DNA from: a virus
Taxonomy: Duplodnaviria > Caudoviricetes
DNA length: 64,000 bases
Reading direction: 5' to 3' (one strand)
Virus record (IMG/VR): IMGVR_UViG_3300024259_001623
Shown here piece after piece: positions 110-33,653 of the stretch (position 1 is the first letter of the stretch; each line of letters begins with the position of its first letter). The notes below the pieces were generated by a model. The model was not told the origin of the DNA. It did no database searches and saw nothing but the letters and a program-made list of their open reading frames with translations. The position numbers and the translations under genes were made by a program.

Positions 110-862
110 TTAAAATATTTTCTTACTTTCGTATTTATCCAATCGCAATGTATCACCTATGGATTCATAGGTAGGAAGAATATCATGCCTTTCTTCAATA
201 CCTCTCATAAATGGTTCTAATGCTTCACCACCAACTCTCTTAATCAGAAACGTTCCATTCTTCTCTTGATTAGTTAAATCGGTGGACCAGTTTTTACTTT
301 TATCATGCAGCATTTCGTGCATATCTTGTCTATTTTTGTTCATAAGTTGCTTATGAGAAAAAATAGAACGGCAATACATCTGCAAACTATTCCTTTCCCA
401 GTCGTTTGCTCTCCATAGCAAATTATTTACAACTTCTTCTCTAGGAACATTAAAAGCTCTAGAATCAAAAAGAGCCAACCTTCCATCATAGCCCATGCCT
501 GCTGCTGCCCGCCAAAAAACATTAAAATAAGCAGTCATTAAAGCAGCAGAAACAGAAACCATCTTATTCAATTTATAACCTAACCATCCTTGAGTGTGGA
601 CATCATCATAATCAGTTAAAACAAAAGTTGCTTCATCAGATTGAACATACCCCGCCTTAAAACCTTGCATTTCTTCTGCCACAGCCTTTGCAGCATTAAC
701 CATACAATTTATAATACGATCATCGAAAGGTTTATTACATTTTTTGGTAAATGTGTGGAATGCCTTACCATCGACCCTAACTATAACAGGTGCACGTTTC
801 ATCAATTGATAACGAGACACTTCCTCGTACCCTTTCATACGATTTCCTAATAATAATTTCAT
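110..862 (-). CDS. thg1: tRNA(His) guanylyltransferase, Thg1/Thg1-like (3'-5' polymerase)
   Basis: Motifs RMKGYE, VIVRVDGKAFHTFT, GYVQSDE, FDSRAFNVP, WRANDWERNS, KNGT. Confidence 0.92.
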   Translation of the reverse strand: MKLLLGNRMKGYEEVSRYQLMKRAPVIVRVDGKAFHTFTKKCNKPFDDRIINCMVNAAKAVAEEMQGFKAGYVQSDEATFVLTDYDDVHTQGWLGYKLNKMVSVSAALMTAYFNVFWRAAAGMGYDGRLALFDSRAFNVPREEVVNNLLWRANDWERNSLQMYCRSIFSHKQLMNKNRQDMHEMLHDKSKNWSTDLTNQEKNGTFLIKRVGGEALEPFMRGIEERHDILPTYESIGDTLRLDKYESKKIF

Positions 863-1007
863 ATTTTTCTCCTTCTATTTCACATTATGACTTCCCCAAT
901 TATAATGTATATTACTATGGCATGGACGACATAATGTTTTTCCGTTTTTTCGGCAAAACTATCTTTTAATAATATTTTTTAATAATATTTTTTAAAATAA
1001 ATCGTTA

Positions 1008-1067
1008 TCATTTACAAATAAAAATACCTTTCATGCGATCACCTAAACTGTCTTTAGAATTACTCAT
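1008..1067 (-). pseudogene. Orphan duplicate of the Thg1 N-terminus (19-aa mini-ORF)
   Basis: ATG at 1067 reads MSNSKDSLGDRMKGIFICK*. DSLGDRMKG is the usual Thg1 start and parallels LLGNRMKG at the start of 110..862. Confidence 0.6.
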
Positions 1068-1287
1068 CGCCTACTTCTCTCTCAAAAATTGCAATTAATT
1101 TCTTTTCATGTTCTGGAGAACTTCCAGTATCAATAAGAATGACATGAACATCATCTAAGGTAAAACAAGACGAATTCATGCCTCGTAAAACCTTTCTCAT
1201 ACTCTTGCATTTCTCTTGCCTAAATATCAAATCAGTTCCATATACATCAGAAACTCTATTTACATCAGAATATACTTTATTATCCAT
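1060..1287 (-). CDS. Hypothetical protein (75 aa)
   Basis: ORF with AAGGAG RBS, in the co-directional run. Confidence 0.6.
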   Translation of the reverse strand: MDNKVYSDVNRVSDVYGTDLIFRQEKCKSMRKVLRGMNSSCFTLDDVHVILIDTGSSPEHEKKLIAIFEREVGDE

Positions 1288-1297
1288 ATTTTCTCCT

Positions 1298-1765
1298 TTA
1301 TGGGGCCAACATCATAATTTCCATAACGCAAGCAGAAACATCTTTACCGTTTATGGTTGTCCCATTAGCTTTGAACAACTTCATAGCTGCTCCAATTGAC
1401 TTACCAGCATGATTGCTAGATAGTATATTATTATACAATTCTTCATCACTTTTTATCATTTCCATGACCTCTTCCTTATTTAGAGATTTTGGAATTAGTG
1501 TTTCCATCAATGTATTTTCATCTACCAGCACTTGATATCTAGCATCTGTTGTTTTCATCACTGCCAAAGTTTCTTTATTGCTTTCTACCAACTTAGAAAC
1601 GATTTTTTGTGATTCTTGTTCAGTTATAGAACCTTTTCTGGATTCCGCAAGTTCTATTTCCCCTAAAATAACTTTCAAAATACTATTAGTGAAAGTATCT
1701 TTTGCCAACGTCGCTTTCCTAATCTGAACTTTTAGTTCATCTTTTAAACTCATCATTTTCTCCAT
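1298..1765 (-). CDS. GatB/YqeY domain protein
   Basis: SLKDELKVQIRKATLAKD...ILKVILGEI, LVDENTLMETLIPKSLNKEE and IGAAMK follow the YqeY pattern. Confidence 0.75.
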   Translation of the reverse strand: MEKMMSLKDELKVQIRKATLAKDTFTNSILKVILGEIELAESRKGSITEQESQKIVSKLVESNKETLAVMKTTDARYQVLVDENTLMETLIPKSLNKEEVMEMIKSDEELYNNILSSNHAGKSIGAAMKLFKANGTTINGKDVSACVMEIMMLAP

Positions 1766-1769
1766 TTAT

Positions 1770-2168
1770 TTAATTTACATATACTTGCATAAATACAGCA
1801 TCATAGACTTTTCCAGCCGCAACGAAGTCTTTTTCACTGACCGTAACAGGGATAATTTTTAAATAAGCGCCTCTATTAAAAGGAACTCTTTTTTGACGAG
1901 CTAAATATTCTTTAGCTTTTGGTTTGTTTGTAAAAACATGTATACCTCTATCTATTTGATCGAAAGCTTCTTCAACAGAATTCATTTCTAGATAACATCT
2001 ATTAGATTTCGCCACACAACCTTTTTTGTAATCTTGGTCATATAGAATACTATGATCACTATTTACAAATCCCATTCTGACGACTTTCCACATAATAGAT
2101 TTGCCACCATGTTCTTTTAATGTTCTTCTAACTCTCTTAGTTCTTTTTTCATCAATATCGAGACACAT
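1770..2168 (-). CDS. Hypothetical protein, paralog of 2168..2584
   Basis: Shares MCxxxDxKRTxRVRRTxKxxGGxxIMWKV, RGIHVxTNK and DFVAAGxxYDAVF with its neighbour. Confidence 0.75.
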   Translation of the reverse strand: MCLDIDEKRTKRVRRTLKEHGGKSIMWKVVRMGFVNSDHSILYDQDYKKGCVAKSNRCYLEMNSVEEAFDQIDRGIHVFTNKPKAKEYLARQKRVPFNRGAYLKIIPVTVSEKDFVAAGKVYDAVFMQVYVN

Positions 2169-2584
2169 TATTCTTCCTCCATCGCCTCATCATAATCTAC
2201 TGGATCAAGAAATACTTTATCGAAAACAGCATCATAATCATCTCCTGCCGCAACAAAATCTGTTGAATAAACTATAACAGGAACAACCAGCCACCATTTA
2301 TAAAAACATGCATCTAAAGCTTTTGTCTTATTTGTATATACATGTATACCTCTATATACATCATCACCAGATTGATGTTCTGTATAACCATATCTGTTAG
2401 ATTTATTCCACCCAAAAGTATAAACACTGTCACGATAAGGAGACATTAAAGATTTTTCAAGTTTCCCGCTAACAGGATTGACATGACTAAGCTTTAAAAC
2501 TTTCCACATAATAGTTCTTCCACCATTATCTTTGAATGTTCTTCTAACTCGTCTGGTTCGCTTTTTATCAACATAGCAACACAT
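2168..2584 (-). CDS. Hypothetical protein, paralog of 1770..2168
   Basis: Start re-placed at MCCYVDKKR (ATG 2584, AAGGAG 8 nt upstream) to match the paralog; the ORF track extends it to 2626. Confidence 0.75.
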   Translation of the reverse strand: MCCYVDKKRTRRVRRTFKDNGGRTIMWKVLKLSHVNPVSGKLEKSLMSPYRDSVYTFGWNKSNRYGYTEHQSGDDVYRGIHVYTNKTKALDACFYKWWLVVPVIVYSTDFVAAGDDYDAVFDKVFLDPVDYDEAMEEE

Positions 2585-2625
2585 TACAAATATCTCCTTA
2601 ATTTTTTCCTGTACACGGCCACACA

Positions 2626-2654
2626 ATTATACAATTAACTTCATATTTTTGCAA
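2626..2654 (-). promoter_or_regulatory. Sigma70-type promoter TTGCAA-N17-TATAAT
   Basis: -35 at 2654-2649, -10 at 2631-2626, upstream of the paralog pair. Confidence 0.7.
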
Positions 2655-2662
2655 TTACCAAA

Positions 2663-3520
2663 TTAAATTTTGTCGTAATTGGTGATAACTATTTCTCTTC
2701 CGATTTTTTTCTTCTTATTAGATGTGCCGCAATAAATCCATTCTTCTTCATAGATATTGAAACCATCATATAAGTCCCTGATGAAATTTTCATCGTCATC
2801 ATCATAACTCATGAGGATTTTATGTTTACAATTTTTGATATCTTTAGCTAATTTGATATGTTGAGCTATAGTAAAATTATTCTTATATAGCTTAGAAGAT
2901 TTAGACAATTTACTATTTACATAGTACGGTGGGTCAAGATAAATCCAAACATCATCTCCATCCTCTGACAAAACTTCTTCATAACCTTGAGAAGTTATTT
3001 TTGTATCTTTAATAGCGTCAGCAGCGCGATCTAAAGTATTCTTATCAATTATATTCCATCCATTAGGATTAGAATAATATAATCTCGAAGGCATGTCGTA
3101 ATTAACTCTACCTTCCCAAACTGTTCTATTGATAAAGAAATATTTCAACGCTTTATCTGAATCAGGATTGGCGATCAACTCATCAAAAACTTCTTTTAAT
3201 CTGGCATTATAAATCTTTTTACCGCCAGGCTTTGCAGAAGTCAGAGGTTCTCCGTCCTTCGCTGTCTCTATTGCTCTACATTTTGCTATGAACTCTTTTG
3301 GACGATCACGCAGGGCCATATAAACGGCAATAAGATCATCATCGATATCATTAATCCATCTTTTGATACCTGGGTCTATTGTCCAGAAAATACCGCCACC
3401 ACCTACAAATGGTGATCTAAATTCAGAATAGAACATCGGGGCATAAGATAATATCTTTTCTCTTACACTGATTTTAGATTTACCGCCTGGATAACGAAAC
3501 AACGAAATATACTTACTCAT
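2663..3520 (-). CDS. N6-adenine DNA methyltransferase (Dam/D12 class)
   Basis: FRYPGGKS, PFVGGGG (motif I), WINDID, YLDPPY (motif IV). Target site unknown. Confidence 0.92.
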   Translation of the reverse strand: MSKYISLFRYPGGKSKISVREKILSYAPMFYSEFRSPFVGGGGIFWTIDPGIKRWINDIDDDLIAVYMALRDRPKEFIAKCRAIETAKDGEPLTSAKPGGKKIYNARLKEVFDELIANPDSDKALKYFFINRTVWEGRVNYDMPSRLYYSNPNGWNIIDKNTLDRAADAIKDTKITSQGYEEVLSEDGDDVWIYLDPPYYVNSKLSKSSKLYKNNFTIAQHIKLAKDIKNCKHKILMSYDDDDENFIRDLYDGFNIYEEEWIYCGTSNKKKKIGREIVITNYDKI

Positions 3521-3531
3521 ATAATCAAACC

Positions 3532-4479
3532 TTAATAATCAGTGGTAACAGTCAAATGGAAATTATCAGAACATTCTTTTCTTGATTGCCATAGATAATT
3601 ATCTACTATCATTGCGTTAGTTCCAGACATATTAGCGATTTTATCACAAGCAATTATAGTAGCTGCCCTTATCTCAATTTCTTCAAGAGAATTTTTTGCT
3701 AAATGTTCAGAATTTCCTATTTTATTAGTCAAAATGGCGTCATATTTTAAACAGCCTTTATAGCGTAAAATCTTCGGAATCTGATAATCGGCCGGCACTG
3801 TCAGTTTTTCTATCTCTGAAACAGGGAAAATCCCTAATTCTCGCTGAATTTGCATAATAAATAATTGTGCCCTTTTCAAAAACATATCAGAAGCAAAACC
3901 AGGAAAAGTCTCGCACAAATACGATACAGTTTGCTCAACGTTTTTGCATTGCAGTATAGAATCGATTATATTACTCATAATATATTTATGATTTAACAAC
4001 TCATATAAATGTTTATATCTCTCTTCTAACATTGGAAAACGATGTAAAACCAGTAGTTGATAAAAATTACGTATTAGTGGTTCATTAAAAACAACCTCGC
4101 CAGGTGCCCCAGGAGGCCCTGTAAACATGATTGGCGACGAGCTATCTACATATATTCTTATATCATAAACAGATTGTAATACGGCTGCACGTAATAAATC
4201 ATACATTTTAGTAGAACTAGAACCTAAAGGTCTAACCTTAGAAGAACCGTACCAATAACAATAATTAATAGAACTAGCAATAATTTCGCAAAGAATAATA
4301 TATTTTGCTTGAATCTTCTTACCATCAAATTCCCAATTGCTAAATGACCAATCAGTTAAAACATCTTTTTCTTTTTGCGCGAAGACAAGAGCTAATTCTT
4401 CTATTTGTTCTTCACAAAGAAACACATGCTTAGGATGAGCCATTATCTCTTGAGAGATATCTAAAACACTTTCAATCAT
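3532..4479 (-). CDS. qng1: Queuosine salvage family protein (DUF2419 / Qng1-like queuosine-5'-phosphate N-glycosylase)
   Basis: INYCYW, FLKRAQL, LTVPADYQIPKILR, EIEIRAATI and VDNYLW match the Qng1/C9orf64 family motifs, including the ADY Asp. Confidence 0.82.
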   Translation of the reverse strand: MIESVLDISQEIMAHPKHVFLCEEQIEELALVFAQKEKDVLTDWSFSNWEFDGKKIQAKYIILCEIIASSINYCYWYGSSKVRPLGSSSTKMYDLLRAAVLQSVYDIRIYVDSSSPIMFTGPPGAPGEVVFNEPLIRNFYQLLVLHRFPMLEERYKHLYELLNHKYIMSNIIDSILQCKNVEQTVSYLCETFPGFASDMFLKRAQLFIMQIQRELGIFPVSEIEKLTVPADYQIPKILRYKGCLKYDAILTNKIGNSEHLAKNSLEEIEIRAATIIACDKIANMSGTNAMIVDNYLWQSRKECSDNFHLTVTTDY

Positions 4480-5065
4480 CTTTATTCTTCCTTTTAAATA
4501 TATGAATTTGGGTTTTTACTATTTTTTGAACATCGTCATTCCATTTGCGATACTGTATCATGCCATAATTAACCAAAGTTTTTATCTCTGAATTGTTCAG
4601 TCTAACAGAAATGTCATTAGGAGAAAATGATTTATATATTCTAAAATCAAAATTCTTACAAATATGATCTATCGTTTTGGTGGTAATAATATAATATCCA
4701 TTCTCTCTAATAATTAAGATATTAGACTTTTCTTTTTTATAACGTAGAAGATTACTTTTCTTAAATGTCATACATTTGAATTGCTCAGAATGTACTTTGA
4801 TCTCAAATAAGATATTCTTCCCATCGATAATAAATAGATAATCTGGTTTTGCATTGACTTTTCTAGATTTTATTATCAGACTTCCATCATTATCCATCCC
4901 ATAATCTTTTATATCTACTTCATGACCTTTACTTTGTAAATCTTTTTGTATCAATTCTGCTGCAATTCTTTCATGTTCCGTGTATTTAGAGATATCATCT
5001 TTGAAGTCTTTAATACTTCTATCATCTCTACGATGCTTCAAACTTTTTACATCTCTGTTTTCCAT
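4472..5065 (-). CDS. PD-(D/E)XK-family nuclease-like protein
   Basis: KPDYLF...LFEIKVH gives a PD..(E)xK arrangement. Confidence 0.55.
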   Translation of the reverse strand: MENRDVKSLKHRRDDRSIKDFKDDISKYTEHERIAAELIQKDLQSKGHEVDIKDYGMDNDGSLIIKSRKVNAKPDYLFIIDGKNILFEIKVHSEQFKCMTFKKSNLLRYKKEKSNILIIRENGYYIITTKTIDHICKNFDFRIYKSFSPNDISVRLNNSEIKTLVNYGMIQYRKWNDDVQKIVKTQIHIFKRKNKDD

Positions 5066-5067
5066 CT

Positions 5068-5382
5068 CTACTTCTTATCTTTAGCGTCTTCGATTTTTTT
5101 GATAACGTCAAGATTATCAACAACTTCAATCTTTTTAGCTGCTTTCTTAGCCTTCTTAGCTTTCTTCGCTTTCTTCGCTGTTTTTACTTCTTGGTATTCT
5201 TTGACTTCTGGGGTATCTAGATCAATATTTACTTTAACAGTAAATTTTGCTTGTATCTTATTTCTCATCAGTACCTCTTTGATCATTAGATGGACTTTCT
5301 CCATCTCATTAGAATCATGTATCTCTTGATGGACATCTCTCATCGCGTCATTATCACATTCTATTTTAATCTCATCAGGCAT
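5068..5382 (-). CDS. Hypothetical protein with Lys/Ala tract (KTAKKAKKAKKAKKAAKK)
   Basis: ORF overlaps both neighbours; histone-H1-like low-complexity stretch. Confidence 0.6.
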   Translation of the reverse strand: MPDEIKIECDNDAMRDVHQEIHDSNEMEKVHLMIKEVLMRNKIQAKFTVKVNIDLDTPEVKEYQEVKTAKKAKKAKKAKKAAKKIEVVDNLDVIKKIEDAKDKK

Positions 5383-5962
5383 TGCGAAGTACTCCTTTTA
5401 TTTGTTTTTCTAGTTTAATGTTCGATCTGCCAGCACATATTTCTCTGACTTCTGGCTTTTCTTGAAACAAAGCCTCATCATATCGAAAACGTTTTATTTC
5501 TATACATATTCCCATCAAAAGCTCTTTATAAGCCGCTATGTAGTCCTTATCTTCTGACATCTTTGCTGTCAAAGGACCATAAACAATTTTTTTAGATCCA
5601 ACTTGTACAATTCCCCTCAAACAATCTACGCAAGGAAAACCAGTTACATAAAAAACAGAATTGTTTAATGCAGTTCCATTTCTGGCTGCATTATAAATAG
5701 CATTTCTTTCTGAATGTTCAAAAAATAAATACTTCTCTGGCCGAGTCTGAGGAACATTATCATCTATAGACCCTTTCATCGGGCTATTATATCCTGTTGT
5801 AAGTATTCCACCTTCTTGATCAGTAACAACGCATCCACATTTACTACTTTTATCTAAAGATTTAGTGCTTACTTCAAAACATAATTTCATAGCATATAAA
5901 TCTTTAGTGGGTCGCCCAAGACGGTCATACCCAAACCCGAATCTACCTCTAATATCTTCCAT
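5375..5962 (-). CDS. dCMP deaminase
   Basis: GYN, HSERNAI and FPCVDC zinc-binding motifs of the cytidine/dCMP deaminase family. Confidence 0.88.
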   Translation of the reverse strand: MEDIRGRFGFGYDRLGRPTKDLYAMKLCFEVSTKSLDKSSKCGCVVTDQEGGILTTGYNSPMKGSIDDNVPQTRPEKYLFFEHSERNAIYNAARNGTALNNSVFYVTGFPCVDCLRGIVQVGSKKIVYGPLTAKMSEDKDYIAAYKELLMGICIEIKRFRYDEALFQEKPEVREICAGRSNIKLEKQIKGVLRNA

Positions 5963-5967
5963 ACTAT

Positions 5968-6495
5968 TTATCCTTTTATATTTTTAATAACTAAATTATA
6001 GATATCTGCTTTATTAAAAGCTGGGATACAATGCAATTCATCTAACTGATCTTGCAAAAAAGTCTTCATGTCGTTGTCAACCTGCAAAGCTTCTTCATAC
6101 GTTTGAAATCTTCCAGTAGTGTCATATTCTTGATCTTCTCTATCCAAAAATATATTTAAAGACTCATGATCACTTTCAAATTTATTTGATATGCTTATCA
6201 GTTCATCGTATATAGGAACTTTGTATAAAATTGAATAAAAACAACCCACCAACAAAGGAGAATCAGTTACAAGATGTTTATATCCTGCTCTAATAACTAA
6301 ATCTTCTCTATGTAATTGATTAGCCAAAATCAACATTTGTTCGAAACCTACTGGCAGTCTTTTGGTATACGTCCACTGTTTTACATATTCAGTTACCAAT
6401 TCTATGTCATAGTCCTGCATTTTCAATTGCGAAAATAACCATGCAGCAGTTGTACTCTTCCCGGCACCTGGACCAGCATATAAACAGATTCTCAC
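5968..6495 (-). CDS. P-loop NTPase/kinase (NadR/AAA_28-like)
   Basis: GPGAGKST, ELVTEYVK, LVTDSP, GRFQ. GTG start. Confidence 0.75.
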   Translation of the reverse strand: MRICLYAGPGAGKSTTAAWLFSQLKMQDYDIELVTEYVKQWTYTKRLPVGFEQMLILANQLHREDLVIRAGYKHLVTDSPLLVGCFYSILYKVPIYDELISISNKFESDHESLNIFLDREDQEYDTTGRFQTYEEALQVDNDMKTFLQDQLDELHCIPAFNKADIYNLVIKNIKG

Positions 6496-6498
6496 AGT

Positions 6499-7410
6499 TT
6501 AGACTCCTATCATAGATTGCTTGCGAGTCAATTCTCGCTTCTTATACTCTTCTATATCATAAAGCTCGTTACTTGGTAGTTTATCTACTAAAATACCACT
6601 ATGGGTGGTTACTAAAAATTGTTTATCGCTAAACACTTCTTTGATCTTATTAATCATGTTTAGATGTCTTTTGAAATATACATGCATTTCTATATTATCT
6701 ATCAATATAATATCAGAATTTGCCATCTGTTCTGGATTACATAAGTTTCTTAACAAAGTAGCTATTTTCTTTTCGCCAGCGCTCATCCTTTTGAAGTGAA
6801 CTTTAACATCACTATATTCTTTGTATAAAACAAAATTAGTGTAAAACAGTTCATCAGTTACATAATCTTCTGATTTTGTGCTATCGACCATTTCCCCTAA
6901 AGCGTTTACTTCATCTCTCAATTCACATTTATAACCCAAAATAACTTCGGCCATATCTAAAAACTTATCTTTCATCCCACATTGTAATTGAAAACTATTT
7001 ACGCTAATAGGTTTATCTACATCTATATAGTAAATAGAACCCCAAGGATTATCAGACAACTCATTAATTATTACACCGTCTTTAGAGGACAAAACAACTT
7101 TCTTTTCCTCTCCATCCTCATCAAATACTCCATGAAGAAAAAGAATCTCTTTGGGTTTATCAAATGCAGCGTAGGCGGGGTTATAATCTCTGTTAAAGAT
7201 TAATTTTCTAAACATGGTTTCGGTGTTAAATTTGTTGATTCTTTTAGCCATAGACAGAAAGTTTATGGCTGACAGGACTGTACTTTTACCGATGCCGTTT
7301 GGCCCATAAAAAGCACAGAAATTTTTGATACTTCCATTTTGAGTAAAATCAAAGGCCATATCCTCATAGCCACAATAATTTTCCATTCTTATTCGTTTTA
7401 TTTTAACCAT
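6499..7410 (-). CDS. ABC/SMC-like ATPase (AAA_21-like)
   Basis: Walker A GPNGIGKST, signature MSAGEKK, Walker B ILIDNIE (atypical), H-loop VTTHS. Confidence 0.8.
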   Translation of the reverse strand: MVKIKRIRMENYCGYEDMAFDFTQNGSIKNFCAFYGPNGIGKSTVLSAINFLSMAKRINKFNTETMFRKLIFNRDYNPAYAAFDKPKEILFLHGVFDEDGEEKKVVLSSKDGVIINELSDNPWGSIYYIDVDKPISVNSFQLQCGMKDKFLDMAEVILGYKCELRDEVNALGEMVDSTKSEDYVTDELFYTNFVLYKEYSDVKVHFKRMSAGEKKIATLLRNLCNPEQMANSDIILIDNIEMHVYFKRHLNMINKIKEVFSDKQFLVTTHSGILVDKLPSNELYDIEEYKKRELTRKQSMIGV

Positions 7411-7474
7411 TTACAATTCCTTCCAAAGATAATATCTTTACATATCTTTTCGTCACTTTGTCGATATTATAAAC

Positions 7475-7762
7475 ATGAAAAACTCAGTATCTAAAAATAA
7501 TATTGTCCAAGATAAAAAGACTTTCAAAAAGTCTGCCGGCAAATGCAGAATATGCGACAATGACAATTATAGTACTTTATCCGTTCATCGTATAAAGCCA
7601 GGATGCGAAGGTGGCAAATATACTGAAATGAACGTTGTTGTTTGTTGTGAGAACTGCCATAGAAGAATACATAATAAAGAAATAGAAATAGACAGATATT
7701 ATGATTCTACTGGTGGAACTCTTTTACGTATCGTAGAAGACGGTAAAGAAAAATTTGTTTAA
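7475..7762 (+). CDS. Small HNH endonuclease
   Basis: CRIC...VHRIKPGCEGGKYTEMNVVVCCENCHRRIH. One of very few credible plus-strand genes. Confidence 0.85.
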   Translation: MKNSVSKNNIVQDKKTFKKSAGKCRICDNDNYSTLSVHRIKPGCEGGKYTEMNVVVCCENCHRRIHNKEIEIDRYYDSTGGTLLRIVEDGKEKFV

Positions 7763-8031
7763 CGATTGTTGAATGGATAGCTTTATCGGGATCTTAGTTA
7801 CATGCGTCACCTACTGTCTGGCCAATAGACACATGGAATGGGGCCAACCGGATAAGCCTTCATTCTCTCCTGACCGACAGACGTAGCGGTGTTCTCTTTC
7901 GAGTCTTTATGCTCCCTCTACATCACCCGCATTAGCGATTTCAAGGTCATGTTACAGGCGTGTCTGCCCGCTGCTATCTCACCGCACTTCCTACCAGATA
8001 AACTCTGGCCGTTTTCAACAACCGTTAAACA
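7756..8031 (-). ncRNA. Structured ncRNA candidate of unknown family (276 nt)
   Basis: 18-bp terminal inverted repeat (7756-7773/8014-8031); its single mismatch is a G-U pair on the minus strand. 7801-7980 is 52% GC versus 32-35% in flanking lines. Internal CCAGA-GUUUA-UCUGG and CUC-GAAA-GAG hairpins. Confidence 0.6.
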
Positions 8032-8264
8032 TTATTCTTTTTATCATTATTAAACAAAGACTGTATCAACTTTGGCCCCCACATAACCCCAGTTATAACA
8101 CAAGACAGAAATATAGTAAGTCTCACAGAAAAATTGCTTGTACCAATCCCCATTTCAGACATAATTTTTATCAATGCATCTACACTTTCTTGAAAAGAAA
8201 ACGCAAATACTGCTAACAAAAAACCTATGGCAAAATATATACCCAACAACCATATCCAAATCAT
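8025..8264 (-). CDS. Small membrane protein
   Basis: Two hydrophobic segments. Confidence 0.6.
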   Translation of the reverse strand: MIWIWLLGIYFAIGFLLAVFAFSFQESVDALIKIMSEMGIGTSNFSVRLTIFLSCVITGVMWGPKLIQSLFNNDKKNNV

Positions 8265-8265
8265 A

Positions 8266-8910
8266 TTAACTTCCTTTCATATCTTTGATTTTTTCTACAA
8301 GTTCATCAATAGTATTATCTACATCTAAGTCTCCATCCAACATTTGATATGCGCTAGGCCATAAAAAAGCCTCTCCACCCCATTCCTTAAAAGCATCAAC
8401 TTTCTTTTTAGAATCATCTATAAGAATAGAATCTTTATTTGCACAAAAATGTTTTGAATGCGTAACTATCATGGCAGGCTTTTCTTCTTGGTAATTATCA
8501 TAAATACATTCCATCTTACCTTTAGCTCCATCAGCAGCTACTTTTGGATGCTTAAAAAGATTACCATTAGAAGTTAAGAAAGATACTTCGCCCAGCTTAT
8601 TCATTGCATTGTATAACTTTTTGTACCAAGGGAACATTGACATATTCTTCCACCAGTCGCTACCGGCTTTTTCTATTGCCTTCCACATATCTTCTTCATT
8701 TGTATGCTTAGTATCTTCTAGCTTAGTACCAGACTTCAATTCATCTCTAAGTTCTTTTTCAGTATCATCTATTCCCAAGAGATCACAAGCAGCTTTCTCC
8801 CAATTGCTAACTACTCCATCCATATCTATAAAAATTCTGATCTTTTTATCTTTTTTCTCAGATAATATAATTTTGTCTGGTGAATTAATACTAATTCGAT
8901 TCTTTTCCAT
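8266..8910 (-). CDS. HAD-family 5'(3')-deoxyribonucleotidase
   Basis: FIDMDGVV (DxD motif I), FLTS, LIDDS (motif IV). Confidence 0.8.
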   Translation of the reverse strand: MEKNRISINSPDKIILSEKKDKKIRIFIDMDGVVSNWEKAACDLLGIDDTEKELRDELKSGTKLEDTKHTNEEDMWKAIEKAGSDWWKNMSMFPWYKKLYNAMNKLGEVSFLTSNGNLFKHPKVAADGAKGKMECIYDNYQEEKPAMIVTHSKHFCANKDSILIDDSKKKVDAFKEWGGEAFLWPSAYQMLDGDLDVDNTIDELVEKIKDMKGS

Positions 8911-32860: not shown

Positions 32861-32889
32861 TTTATCAGTTTTTTTGCCACTTTTGTCAA
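32861..32889 (-). promoter_or_regulatory. Sigma70-type promoter TTGACA-N17-GATAAA
   Basis: Upstream of dnaN; the -35 overlaps the sigma gene stop codon. Confidence 0.55.
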
Positions 32890-33653
32890 TCATCATTTTC
32901 ATGATTTTGATATATTTTTTTCGCCTTGTATTTCACTCTAGAAAGAGCGTTATCAACGCTTTTAACATTAATCTCTACTTTATGTTTTTTAGATTCTTTA
33001 TTCTTATTATTTATTAATTCAGCTATTTTCTCATATGAGAAGTTCTGTCTATACAAAACAAATACTTGTCTTTCCAAATAAGACATTTTCCCCCACAATA
33101 GTTTAATTAATAAATTATAATCTTCTTTTTCACTGACATCTGATGCAACATTCCCACAATCATCGCTAGGAACTATGTCAGCTAATGAAACTGGTTCTTC
33201 TTGAGAATCGCTTTTAGATCTATCTTGATCTAGACTAATAGAGCTATTTAATACTTTTTGTTTACTCTGAAAAGAAGATTTTAATTTAGTAGATAAATGT
33301 CTTCTTATACATAAAGAAGCAAAACTATCAAATGGAGATATATTACTTCTCAAACTCCTAGTCGGATCATAATCTTTTATTGCTTTAAAACATAAAGCTA
33401 TCAGTGCCTCTTGAGTCAGGTCTTCAATTTGACAACCAGGTATATTCATCTTATACGATATTTGTTTTATTTTTGGTTGCATTAACTCAATTATCTCGTT
33501 AAATGCAATATTAACTTCCTTAGAATTTTTAGATTTTCTGACTATATCAACAAGATCGATAAATCTTTCTATTTTCTTTTGTCTTTTTGCGTCGGCTTCA
33601 GCATCATTTTTTTTCTTATTAGACCCAACCAGACTTTTTTTAGGTCTGGCCAT
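32886..33653 (-). CDS. sigH: Sigma-70 family factor, SigH(Spo0H)-like
   Basis: EDLTQEALIAL..AIKDYD, FDSFASLCIRRHL, SISLD, SYLERQVF, SYEKIAE, KSVDNALSRVK (SigH-type KSIDNALQRVK). Confidence 0.8.
   Translation of the reverse strand: MARPKKSLVGSNKKKNDAEADAKRQKKIERFIDLVDIVRKSKNSKEVNIAFNEIIELMQPKIKQISYKMNIPGCQIEDLTQEALIALCFKAIKDYDPTRSLRSNISPFDSFASLCIRRHLSTKLKSSFQSKQKVLNSSISLDQDRSKSDSQEEPVSLADIVPSDDCGNVASDVSEKEDYNLLIKLLWGKMSYLERQVFVLYRQNFSYEKIAELINNKNKESKKHKVEINVKSVDNALSRVKYKAKKIYQNHENDD

What the first reader, a model, noticed from the sequence alone, without database searches (positions are those of the whole stretch)
7756..8031. 276-nt GC-rich structured RNA candidate closed by an 18-bp helix
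Seen: TGTTTAACGATTGTTGAA (7756-7773) and TTCAACAACCGTTAAACA (8014-8031) pair fully on the minus strand with one G-U. Both arms contain the stop codons of the flanking convergent genes. The interior is 52% GC (7801-7980). It has a CCAGA/UCUGG hairpin (7994-8008), a CUC-GAAA-GAG tetraloop (7894-7903), GCGGUG/CACCGC (7980-7985/7886-7891), a T-loop-like UGAGA, and an irregular helix 7771-7790/7848-7865. No credible ORF. It only partly resembles RNase P and cobalamin-riboswitch consensus. Inference: a novel phage ncRNA, or a non-autonomous element with terminal inverted repeats.
Basis: partly seen in the sequence, partly recalled or inferred. Interest (0 to 1): 0.75.

Follow-up and report, generated by a model that had tools for sequence, protein, structure and literature searches.

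The report
Orphan GC-rich insert with paired ends
A 262-base, gene-free, GC-rich insert with complementary ends lies between two converging genes of a giant marine phage. It matches no known RNA family. It may be a small lineage-specific RNA or a stranded mobile element, and public data cannot yet decide.

Summary
Arms 7756-7773 and 8014-8031 pair over 18 positions with one A/C mismatch, which is G-U on the minus strand. They enclose 240 nt of 50% GC in a 33% GC window, the strongest GC island there (z=+4).

The claim of a "structured" RNA is not shown. Without the closing helix the interior folds no better than shuffles (z -0.8 on the minus strand, +0.7 on the plus strand). Rfam gives nothing, even at E<=10.

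The element is lineage-specific. Seven other lineages with the homologous HNH gene lack it; in three of them the HNH stop abuts or overlaps the converging gene. One 83%-identical relative has a 242-nt gap at the same place, but its DNA could not be fetched.

The insert (7763-8024) has 11-bp inverted ends flanked by TTAA on both sides, so a MITE-like origin stays open. No second copy was found anywhere.

Odds:
- 0.4: a minus-strand non-coding RNA domain at the end of the NT5C-mem79 operon, closed or released by its long stem.
- 0.25: a MITE-like insertion.
- 0.2: a terminator, insulator or inert foreign DNA.
- Retron, intron, tRNA-like and inverton readings failed their tests.

Interest is modest. 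The scan noted this same stretch before, on this genome only.

The parts
7756..7773 (-). Left arm of the closing inverted repeat. The outer 7 nt are the last codon and stop of the HNH gene. The inner 11 nt (7763-7773) are the inverted end of the insert.
   Evidence: HNH relatives end in the same ...KFV-stop without any insert, so 7756-7762 predates the element.
8014..8031 (-). Right arm. The inner 11 nt (8014-8024) are the other inverted end. The outer 7 nt are the stop and last codon of the 79-aa gene.
7774..8013 (-). GC-rich interior: 240 nt, 50.4% GC, G>C on the minus strand. It has no long ORF and no Rfam match.
7763..8024 (.). The 262-bp insert proper, flanked by TTAA at 7759-7762 and 8025-8028. 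It can equally be read as TA plus 12-bp ends. Removing the insert and one TTAA would give a 4-nt stop-stop overlap, as in relatives.
   Evidence: Sequence. Relatives L038-L046 have a 4-nt stop overlap.
7744..7755 (-). U-rich tract (AAUUUUUCUUUA) directly 3' of the closing helix on the minus strand. It lies inside the conserved C-terminal codons of HNH.
8032..8043 (+). U-rich tract (UUAUUCUUUUUA) directly 3' of the helix on the plus strand. It lies inside the Asn/Lys-rich tail of the 79-aa gene.
7475..7762 (+). Minimal HNH endonuclease gene (95 aa), convergent with the element's right-hand neighbour.
   Evidence: Pfam HNH, E 4e-5; PHROGs HNH families
8025..8264 (-). Orphan 79-aa gene whose sequence looks hydrophobic (membrane-like by eye). 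It is the last gene of the minus-strand unit p95-NT5C-mem79. The element lies directly 3' of it.
   Evidence: No family was found and no homologue.
6499..7410 (-). PtuA-like ABC/SMC-type ATPase (303 aa), divergent from HNH. Given as context, not shown to be part of the element.
   Evidence: Pfam AAA_15, E 8e-15; PADLOC PtuA, E 2.7e-21

Best explanation
The element is a lineage-specific non-coding RNA domain read from the minus strand.

Shown:
- A 262-bp insert of foreign composition lies exactly between the stops of two converging genes.
- It is absent from more distant relatives.
- It is invariant in the phage population sampled.
- Its ends form an 18-bp helix whose only imperfections are G-U pairs in the minus sense.

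Inferred:
- I found no sigma-70-type or phage two-box promoter consensus just upstream on the minus strand. The element would then be transcribed as the 3' end of the p95-NT5C-mem79 unit.
- The two ends would pair into a long AT-rich stem, 18 bp perfect and about 30 bp imperfect, followed by a U tract.
- That stem would stop or trim the transcript before it runs antisense into HNH.
- Like the processing stems that flank rRNA and some phage stable RNAs, the stem would be a natural substrate for a double-strand-specific RNase. Cleavage would release a GC-rich RNA of about 240-270 nt.

What the released RNA does is not known.
For: - The GC island is the strongest in the window (z=+4.0). In AT-rich genomes, long GC-rich intergenic regions are enriched for RNA genes (GC-IGR approach, PMC11109978).
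- Earlier notes of this scan describe many RNA genes in this genome. I did not check them.
- The fixed A/C mismatch at 7765/8022 gives G-U only on the minus strand.
- A low-depth population variant, T7769C, turns A-U into G-U on the minus strand. On the plus strand it would be a C-A mismatch.
- G>C skew is on the minus strand, as in the minus-strand genes around it. The plus-strand HNH gene shows the opposite skew.
- The minus strand folds 17 kcal/mol better than the plus strand: -92.2 (z -3.4) against -75.0 (z -2.0).
- A U tract begins 2 nt after the helix.
- The only close relative (HNH 83% identical) keeps a non-coding gap of similar length at the same junction: 242 nt against 262 nt.
- The element is identical in five independent contigs.
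- MITEs are rare in viruses: 0.2% of those screened in PMC11602168.
Against: - The interior alone is no more stable than shuffles on either strand, and its ensemble is no better defined on the minus strand.
- Single-sequence folds are not evidence of structure (PMC8250186).
- No homologue was available for covariation.
- No promoter, terminator consensus or phage two-box promoter lies next to it.
- The A7813C variant would break a predicted pair of the MFE fold.
- The outer 7 bp of the helix are coding sequence and stop codons, which an insertion duplication explains as well as selection does.
- Inverted ends plus a flanking repeat are the hallmark of a transposon relic.
Confidence: 0.4

Rival explanations
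1. A MITE-like non-autonomous DNA transposon or its relic. A 262-bp element with 11-12-bp terminal inverted repeats inserted into the palindromic stop-stop overlap (TGTTTAAACA) of the two converging genes. The insertion duplicated TA or TTAA and so regenerated both stop codons. The closing helix is then a by-product of inverted ends plus a palindromic target.
For: - The ends are inverted: CGATTGTTGAA and TTCAACAACCG, with 1 mismatch, flanked by TTAA on both sides.
- Deleting the insert plus one repeat restores a 4-nt stop overlap. HNH relatives L038-L046 show exactly this geometry.
- HNH's ...KFV-stop is native in relatives, so the left boundary falls right after the stop.
- The composition is foreign.
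- Size, end length and duplication length fit the MITE definition: 50-800 bp, ends of at least 10-15 bp, duplication 2-10 bp (PMC11602168).
- The interior has no folding signal, no ORF and no Rfam match.
Against: - Only one copy was found. There is no other copy in the 64-kb window, nor among the stretches indexed by this scan for the genome.
- Nothing was found in IMG/VR pattern scans, INPHARED or PLSDB.
- An 18-mer probe of GTDB genomes gave only chance-level hits that do not extend. 802 sampled genomes gave nothing.
- No transposase is nearby.
- The TTAA repeat is largely forced, because both genes end in T-TAA.
- The 'empty' sites are in distant relatives whose converging gene is not homologous, so they are not true orthologous empty sites.
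- 50% GC is high for DNA from the host of a 33% GC phage.
- MITEs are rare in phages (PMC11602168).
Confidence: 0.25
2. No dedicated RNA product. The stretch is a bidirectional terminator or insulator between converging transcription units whose stem happens to enclose inert foreign DNA. Alternatively it is simply a neutral remnant of illegitimately acquired DNA.
For: - It lies at one of only two converging gene junctions seen in the 5.5-10.5-kb stretch whose ORFs were listed in full.
- An A tract, the stem and a T tract are symmetric on both strands (repeat I1).
- A promoter-like site for the ATPase at 7495-7466 on the minus strand implies the upstream unit should end before HNH.
- The interior has no structure signal.
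Against: - The terminator scan finds nothing here.
- An AT-rich stem with a 240-nt 'loop' is far from the intrinsic-terminator design.
- Relatives manage with overlapping stops and no spacer.
- Compact phage genomes rarely keep 240 nt of inert DNA, yet the relative appears to keep it.
Confidence: 0.2
3. An RT-less echo of a type I-A retron, or an RNA partner of the neighbouring PtuA-like ATPase and HNH pair. The end-paired RNA would bind or restrain the nuclease complex.
For: - The ATPase matches PtuA and retron I-A ATPase models (E 2.7e-21 and 1.2e-15).
- The HNH gene is adjacent, and the terminal inverted repeats recall a1/a2.
- Type I-A retrons combine RT, ncRNA, PtuA and PtuB (PMC12819146, PMC12475279).
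Against: - None of the 19 ORFs scanned against Pfam between positions 110 and 15756 carries a reverse-transcriptase domain.
- HNH does not match any PtuB model.
- The ATPase-HNH pair occurs in at least six other phage lineages, divergent or tandem, without the element.
Confidence: 0.03
4. An invertible DNA switch (inverton). The 18-bp inverted repeats would be recombination sites that flip the 240-bp interior.
For: The size and the inverted repeats fit known invertons (my own knowledge).
Against: - All five independent contigs carry the same orientation.
- Contigs that cross either arm do so in the reference orientation (records 5 and 11).
- No recombinase gene is nearby.
- The GC-rich interior has no promoter-like site.
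Confidence: 0.03

Closest known systems
Stable RNAs released from longer transcripts through a flanking processing stem, such as bacterial rRNA precursors cut by RNase III, and small stable RNAs of phage T4 of unknown function (named from my own knowledge)
   Same: A GC-rich RNA body in an AT-rich genome, closed by a long helix made of the sequences on either side. No promoter was detected, and the element lies inside an operon-like context.
   Different: No transcript, cleavage site or homologue is known here. The stem includes coding sequence of both neighbours. The interior shows no folding signal.
Prokaryotic and viral MITEs (definition and survey in PMC11602168). Correia elements of Neisseria are an example whose end hairpins are cut by RNase III when transcribed (my own knowledge).
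   Same: 262 bp, 11-12-bp inverted ends, a TA/TTAA flanking repeat, no ORF, intergenic position right after stop codons, and presence or absence among relatives.
   Different: Only one copy was found anywhere, no matching transposase, and a GC content well above that of the phage.
Type I-A retron ncRNA (msr-msd) with PtuA/PtuB effectors (PMC12819146, PMC12673091, PMC12475279)
   Same: An end-paired non-coding stretch next to a PtuA-like ATPase and an HNH nuclease.
   Different: No reverse transcriptase. HNH does not match any PtuB model. The same gene pair exists without the element in related phages.
Unassigned long GC-rich intergenic regions of the GC-IGR surveys (PMC11109978, PMC8632094)
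   Same: It was picked out by the same two criteria, length and GC excess.
   Different: Those surveys rank candidates by covariation among many representatives. Here at most two representatives exist in public data.

Membership tests
Any Rfam 15 family (including RNase P, cobalamin riboswitch, group I intron, tmRNA, 6S, SRP, YrlA, HEARO) | Covariance-model match at or near the gathering score | tested here: not met
   No hit in the window at gathering score. No hit in the element at E<=10 in a 1.2-kb search. No hit at E<=10 on the element alone.
tRNA / tmRNA / tRNA-like | Cloverleaf found by ARAGORN | tested here: not met
   None at default settings. At 80% thresholds there is only a mismatch-ridden call overlapping the 79-aa gene.
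Group I intron | Interrupts a gene whose exons join in frame | tested here: not met
   HNH is complete, with the same C-terminus as its relatives. There is no exon-like ORF beyond either arm.
Retron (type I-A) | Reverse transcriptase gene next to the ncRNA | tested here: not met
   None of the 19 ORFs scanned against Pfam between positions 110 and 15756 has an RVT domain.
Retron (type I-A) | a1/a2 inverted repeats closing the ncRNA | tested here: met
   18-bp terminal inverted repeat
Retron (type I-A) | PtuA ATPase and PtuB HNH effectors | tested here: inconclusive
   The ATPase matches PtuA models (E 2.7e-21). The 95-aa HNH matches only a type IV restriction HNH model.
MITE | Terminal inverted repeats of at least 10-15 bp | tested here: met
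   11 bp with one mismatch (12 bp if the duplication is TA); 18 bp including the flanks
MITE | Target-site duplication of 2-10 bp | tested here: inconclusive
   TTAA (or TA) flanks both ends. However, both neighbours need a TAA stop there, so the repeat is partly forced.
MITE | Several copies in a genome or in related genomes | tested here: not met
   No second copy in the window, the scan index, IMG/VR, INPHARED or PLSDB, the GTDB probe, 802 genomes or five relatives' full records. The host genome is unknown, so this test is weak.
MITE | Filled and empty versions of the same site in relatives | tested here: inconclusive
   Relatives with the homologous HNH lack the insert and have a 4-nt stop overlap, but their converging gene is not homologous.
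Intrinsic terminator | Short GC-rich hairpin followed by a U run | tested here: not met
   No site in 7700-8100. U tracts are present after the long stem on both strands.
Inverton | Both orientations of the segment in a population | tested here: not met
   Only one orientation in five contigs and in contigs crossing the arms. Raw reads were not examined.
Conserved structured ncRNA in general | Covariation that keeps base pairs among homologues | not testable with these tools
   The only relative likely to carry it (P0002 contigs) was returned without DNA. All other copies are identical.

The most novel reading that the evidence does not exclude
The element encodes a new kind of RNA that works with the adjacent phage-borne PtuA-like ATPase and minimal HNH pair. 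It would be an RT-free, RNA-regulated or RNA-guided version of a Septu or retron I-A effector, carried by a megaphage.
Probability: 0.04. Interest if true: 0.8.

Novelty: new member of a known kind. Interest (0 to 1): 0.3.

Why it matters
If it is an RNA gene, it adds one more orphan stable RNA to a megaphage that earlier notes of this scan describe as already rich in unusual RNAs. It would also be a clean case of an RNA body delivered by a processing stem at a converging gene junction.

If it is a MITE, it is a rare transposon footprint in a phage. Copies in a bacterial genome could then identify the unknown host.

Either way it is a single-lineage feature with no evidence of function so far, so its present weight is small.

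Tried and rejected
- Known RNA families: Rfam at gathering score and at E<=10 gave nothing in the element. The recalled RNase P and cobalamin resemblance is dropped.
- tRNA-like: ARAGORN at relaxed thresholds gave only a spurious call.
- Homologue searches by DNA: INPHARED in near and distant modes, and PLSDB. IMG/VR pattern scans with an interior 20-mer, an inverted-end pattern and the rV5-shared 20-mer all gave 0. The self pattern also gave 0, so this contig is not in IMG/VR.
- GTDB 18-mer probe: 16 hits against about 17 expected by chance, and none extends.
- BLAST of 802 sampled Bacteroidota-type and Proteobacteria-type genomes and of five relatives' full records: nothing. These are samples, not proof of absence.
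- A 20-nt identity with an unannotated spacer of Escherichia phage V5 looked promising. The flanks are no more alike than shuffles (p 0.15 and 0.42) and about one such match is expected by chance. Rejected.
- Syntenic relatives: 37 loci found through the ATPase and others through HNH. None carries the element.
- The 214-aa NT5C query and the 79-aa gene found no useful relatives.
- P0002 contigs (ERZ23498360, ERZ23498365) came back without DNA.
- Population variation: the low-share runs turned out to have low coverage, not divergence. Only two low-depth variants were seen.
- No RNA holder was listed for the stretch.
- No joints or inverted forms were seen in the four runs laid, but coverage was only a few contigs.
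- The phage two-box promoter reported elsewhere in this genome is absent near the element.
- No whole genome is held for the window, so copy number in the full 434 kb rests only on the scan's own index.
- A covariance model of the 276-nt element was not built.

Full report
**What is there.**
- The window is part of an uncultivated seawater phage genome. The longest contig carrying these genes is 434,625 bp.
- Mean GC is 32.6%, and of the 62 ORFs of 150 aa or more, all but two are on the minus strand.
- At 7475-7762 a 95-aa HNH endonuclease gene lies on the plus strand (Pfam HNH, E 4e-5).
- It converges on a minus-strand unit of p95, an NT5C-type 5'-nucleotidase and an orphan 79-aa gene that looks hydrophobic by eye (8025-8264).
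- Between the two stop codons lie 262 bp (7763-8024) without any credible ORF.

**The observation.**
- The arms 7756-7773 and 8014-8031 are complementary at 17 of 18 positions. The exception, A7765/C8022, is G-U on the minus strand.
- The repeat extends imperfectly to 30 nt.
- Such a repeat is expected about 0.13 times per shuffled window.
- It bounds exactly the highest GC island of the window: 50.4% GC, z=+4.0.

**Is it a structured RNA?**
- The 276-nt stretch folds to -92.2 kcal/mol on the minus strand (z -3.4) and -75.0 on the plus strand (z -2.0).
- Without the arms, the 240-nt interior gives z -0.82 (minus) and +0.68 (plus). My own dinucleotide shuffles agree, and the ensemble is no better defined than in shuffles on the minus strand.
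- The whole thermodynamic signal is therefore the closing helix, about 21 kcal/mol. The short interior hairpins are what 240 nt of 50% GC sequence gives by chance. Single-sequence folds carry no evidential weight (PMC8250186).
- Rfam has nothing at gathering score or at E<=10, even when only the element is searched with lax filters.
- ARAGORN finds nothing credible.

**Relatives.**
- The ATPase next door (6499-7410; AAA_15, and PtuA-like in PADLOC at E 2.7e-21) brought in 37 loci of huge phages at 30-62% identity. None contains anything like the element.
- The HNH protein has only three relatives among 5.8 billion proteins, plus homologues seen by tblastn.
- In the P0003 lineage (59% identical) and the P0004 lineage (61%), the HNH stop overlaps the stop of the converging gene by 4 nt (TTAG or TTAA). 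HNH ends in the same ...KFV-stop as here.
- In L017 the genes also abut. In L026 and L056 there are 195-nt and 142-nt gaps that are not GC islands: L056 is visibly AT-rich, and no 150-nt window of L026 exceeds 45% GC.
- In L050 HNH lies in tandem between NT5C and the ATPase, with no 79-aa gene and no spacer.
- Only the closest relative (P0002, 83% identical) has a 242-nt gene-free gap between HNH and a converging 73-aa gene.
- The element is therefore a recent, lineage-specific acquisition, probably shared by two known phages.
- Five independent contigs of the phage itself are identical over 790 nt.
- Four runs added only two low-depth variants. T7769C keeps pairing as G-U on the minus strand. 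A7813C would break one pair of the MFE fold, or extend an alternative helix by a G-U.

**Anatomy of the junctions.**
- Because relatives show that ...TTTGTTTAA is native HNH sequence, the left boundary of the insert is right after the stop.
- The sequence reads TGT-TTAA-[CGATTGTTGAA ... TTCAACAACCG]-TTAA-ACA.
- Removing the bracketed insert and one TTAA leaves TGTTTAAACA. That is a palindrome in which the two stops overlap by 4 nt, the geometry seen in relatives.
- This is what a cut-and-paste insertion with a TA or TTAA duplication and 11-12-bp inverted ends would leave. It meets the formal MITE criteria (PMC11602168).
- The repeat is partly forced, because both genes end in T-TAA.
- The empty sites are not strictly orthologous.
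- No second copy was found anywhere I could look.
- MITEs are rare in viruses (PMC11602168).

**Weighing.**
- For an RNA read from the minus strand:
  - The extreme GC excess in a phage said by earlier notes to be rich in RNA genes (not checked by me).
  - The GC-IGR rationale (PMC11109978).
  - G>C skew on the minus strand, whereas the HNH gene shows the opposite.
  - Both helix imperfections are minus-sense wobbles.
  - A U tract lies 2 nt after the stem.
  - The relative apparently retains the gap.
- Against it: there is no structure signal, no promoter or terminator consensus, and no expression or covariation data.
- I put 0.4 on a minus-strand RNA domain. It would be transcribed with the NT5C-mem79 unit and closed by a long stem that ends or processes the transcript and may release a roughly 240-270-nt RNA.
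- I put 0.25 on a MITE-like relic and 0.2 on a terminator, insulator or inert DNA.
- These readings overlap. A transcribed MITE would form the same stem.

**Rejected readings.**
- Retron-like: none of the 19 ORFs scanned against Pfam between 110 and 15756 has a reverse-transcriptase domain. The ATPase-HNH pair is widespread without the element.
- Group I intron: no split gene and no model match.
- Inverton: only one orientation was seen.
- The phage V5 match is chance.

**Verdict.** The feature is real and unclassified, and it is confined to one lineage. The word 'structured' is not earned yet. With at most two representatives in public data, covariation cannot currently decide. The relative's contig and strand-specific RNA data would.

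Noticed in passing
window 6499-7762; L017, L026, L044-L047, L049, L050, L056: A compact PtuA-like ATPase (about 300 aa) and a minimal HNH (about 90 aa) travel together in many huge-phage lineages. They are usually divergent, but tandem in L050 (NT5C-HNH-ATPase). This looks like a conserved two-gene, Septu-like module carried by phages themselves. Other relatives (L001-L012) have the ATPase without HNH nearby.
   Followed up: partly
window 7807-7863 (minus strand): An 18-codon ORF (MKAYPVGPIPCVYWPDSR) preceded by AGGAGAGA lies inside the element. Its start region shares 20 identical bases with an unannotated spacer of Escherichia phage V5, which also opens a 16-codon ORF starting MKAY. The flanks are not significantly alike, so I treat it as chance.
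   Followed up: yes
L020 2714-2789 and L037 2673-2751: ARAGORN calls odd tRNA-like genes with a four-base 'anticodon' (tttg) about 1.2 kb upstream of the ATPase homologue in two distant huge phages.
   Followed up: no
window 33111-33288: The only other 18-nt inverted repeat with at most 1 mismatch at 50-400 nt spacing in the window. It is AT-rich and lies inside ORF 32886-33653, so it is probably chance.
   Followed up: partly
window 7783-7864, run X16: A low-depth 82-nt contig differs at 4 positions from the element, about 5%. This hints at a divergent strain in that seawater sample that could supply variation for a covariation test.
   Followed up: no
L013 and L035: The two closest ATPase relatives in the contig collections (61-62% identity) both sit on contigs that break inside the ATPase gene. 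Their HNH side is therefore not assembled. This may point to strain variation at this junction.
   Followed up: no
window 110-6495 and 8266-8910: The neighbourhood is a nucleotide and tRNA-modification block: Thg1, a YqeY-like protein, a Dam-type methyltransferase, a queuosine-salvage protein, dCMP deaminase, a kinase-like AAA_28 protein and a 5'-nucleotidase.
   Followed up: partly
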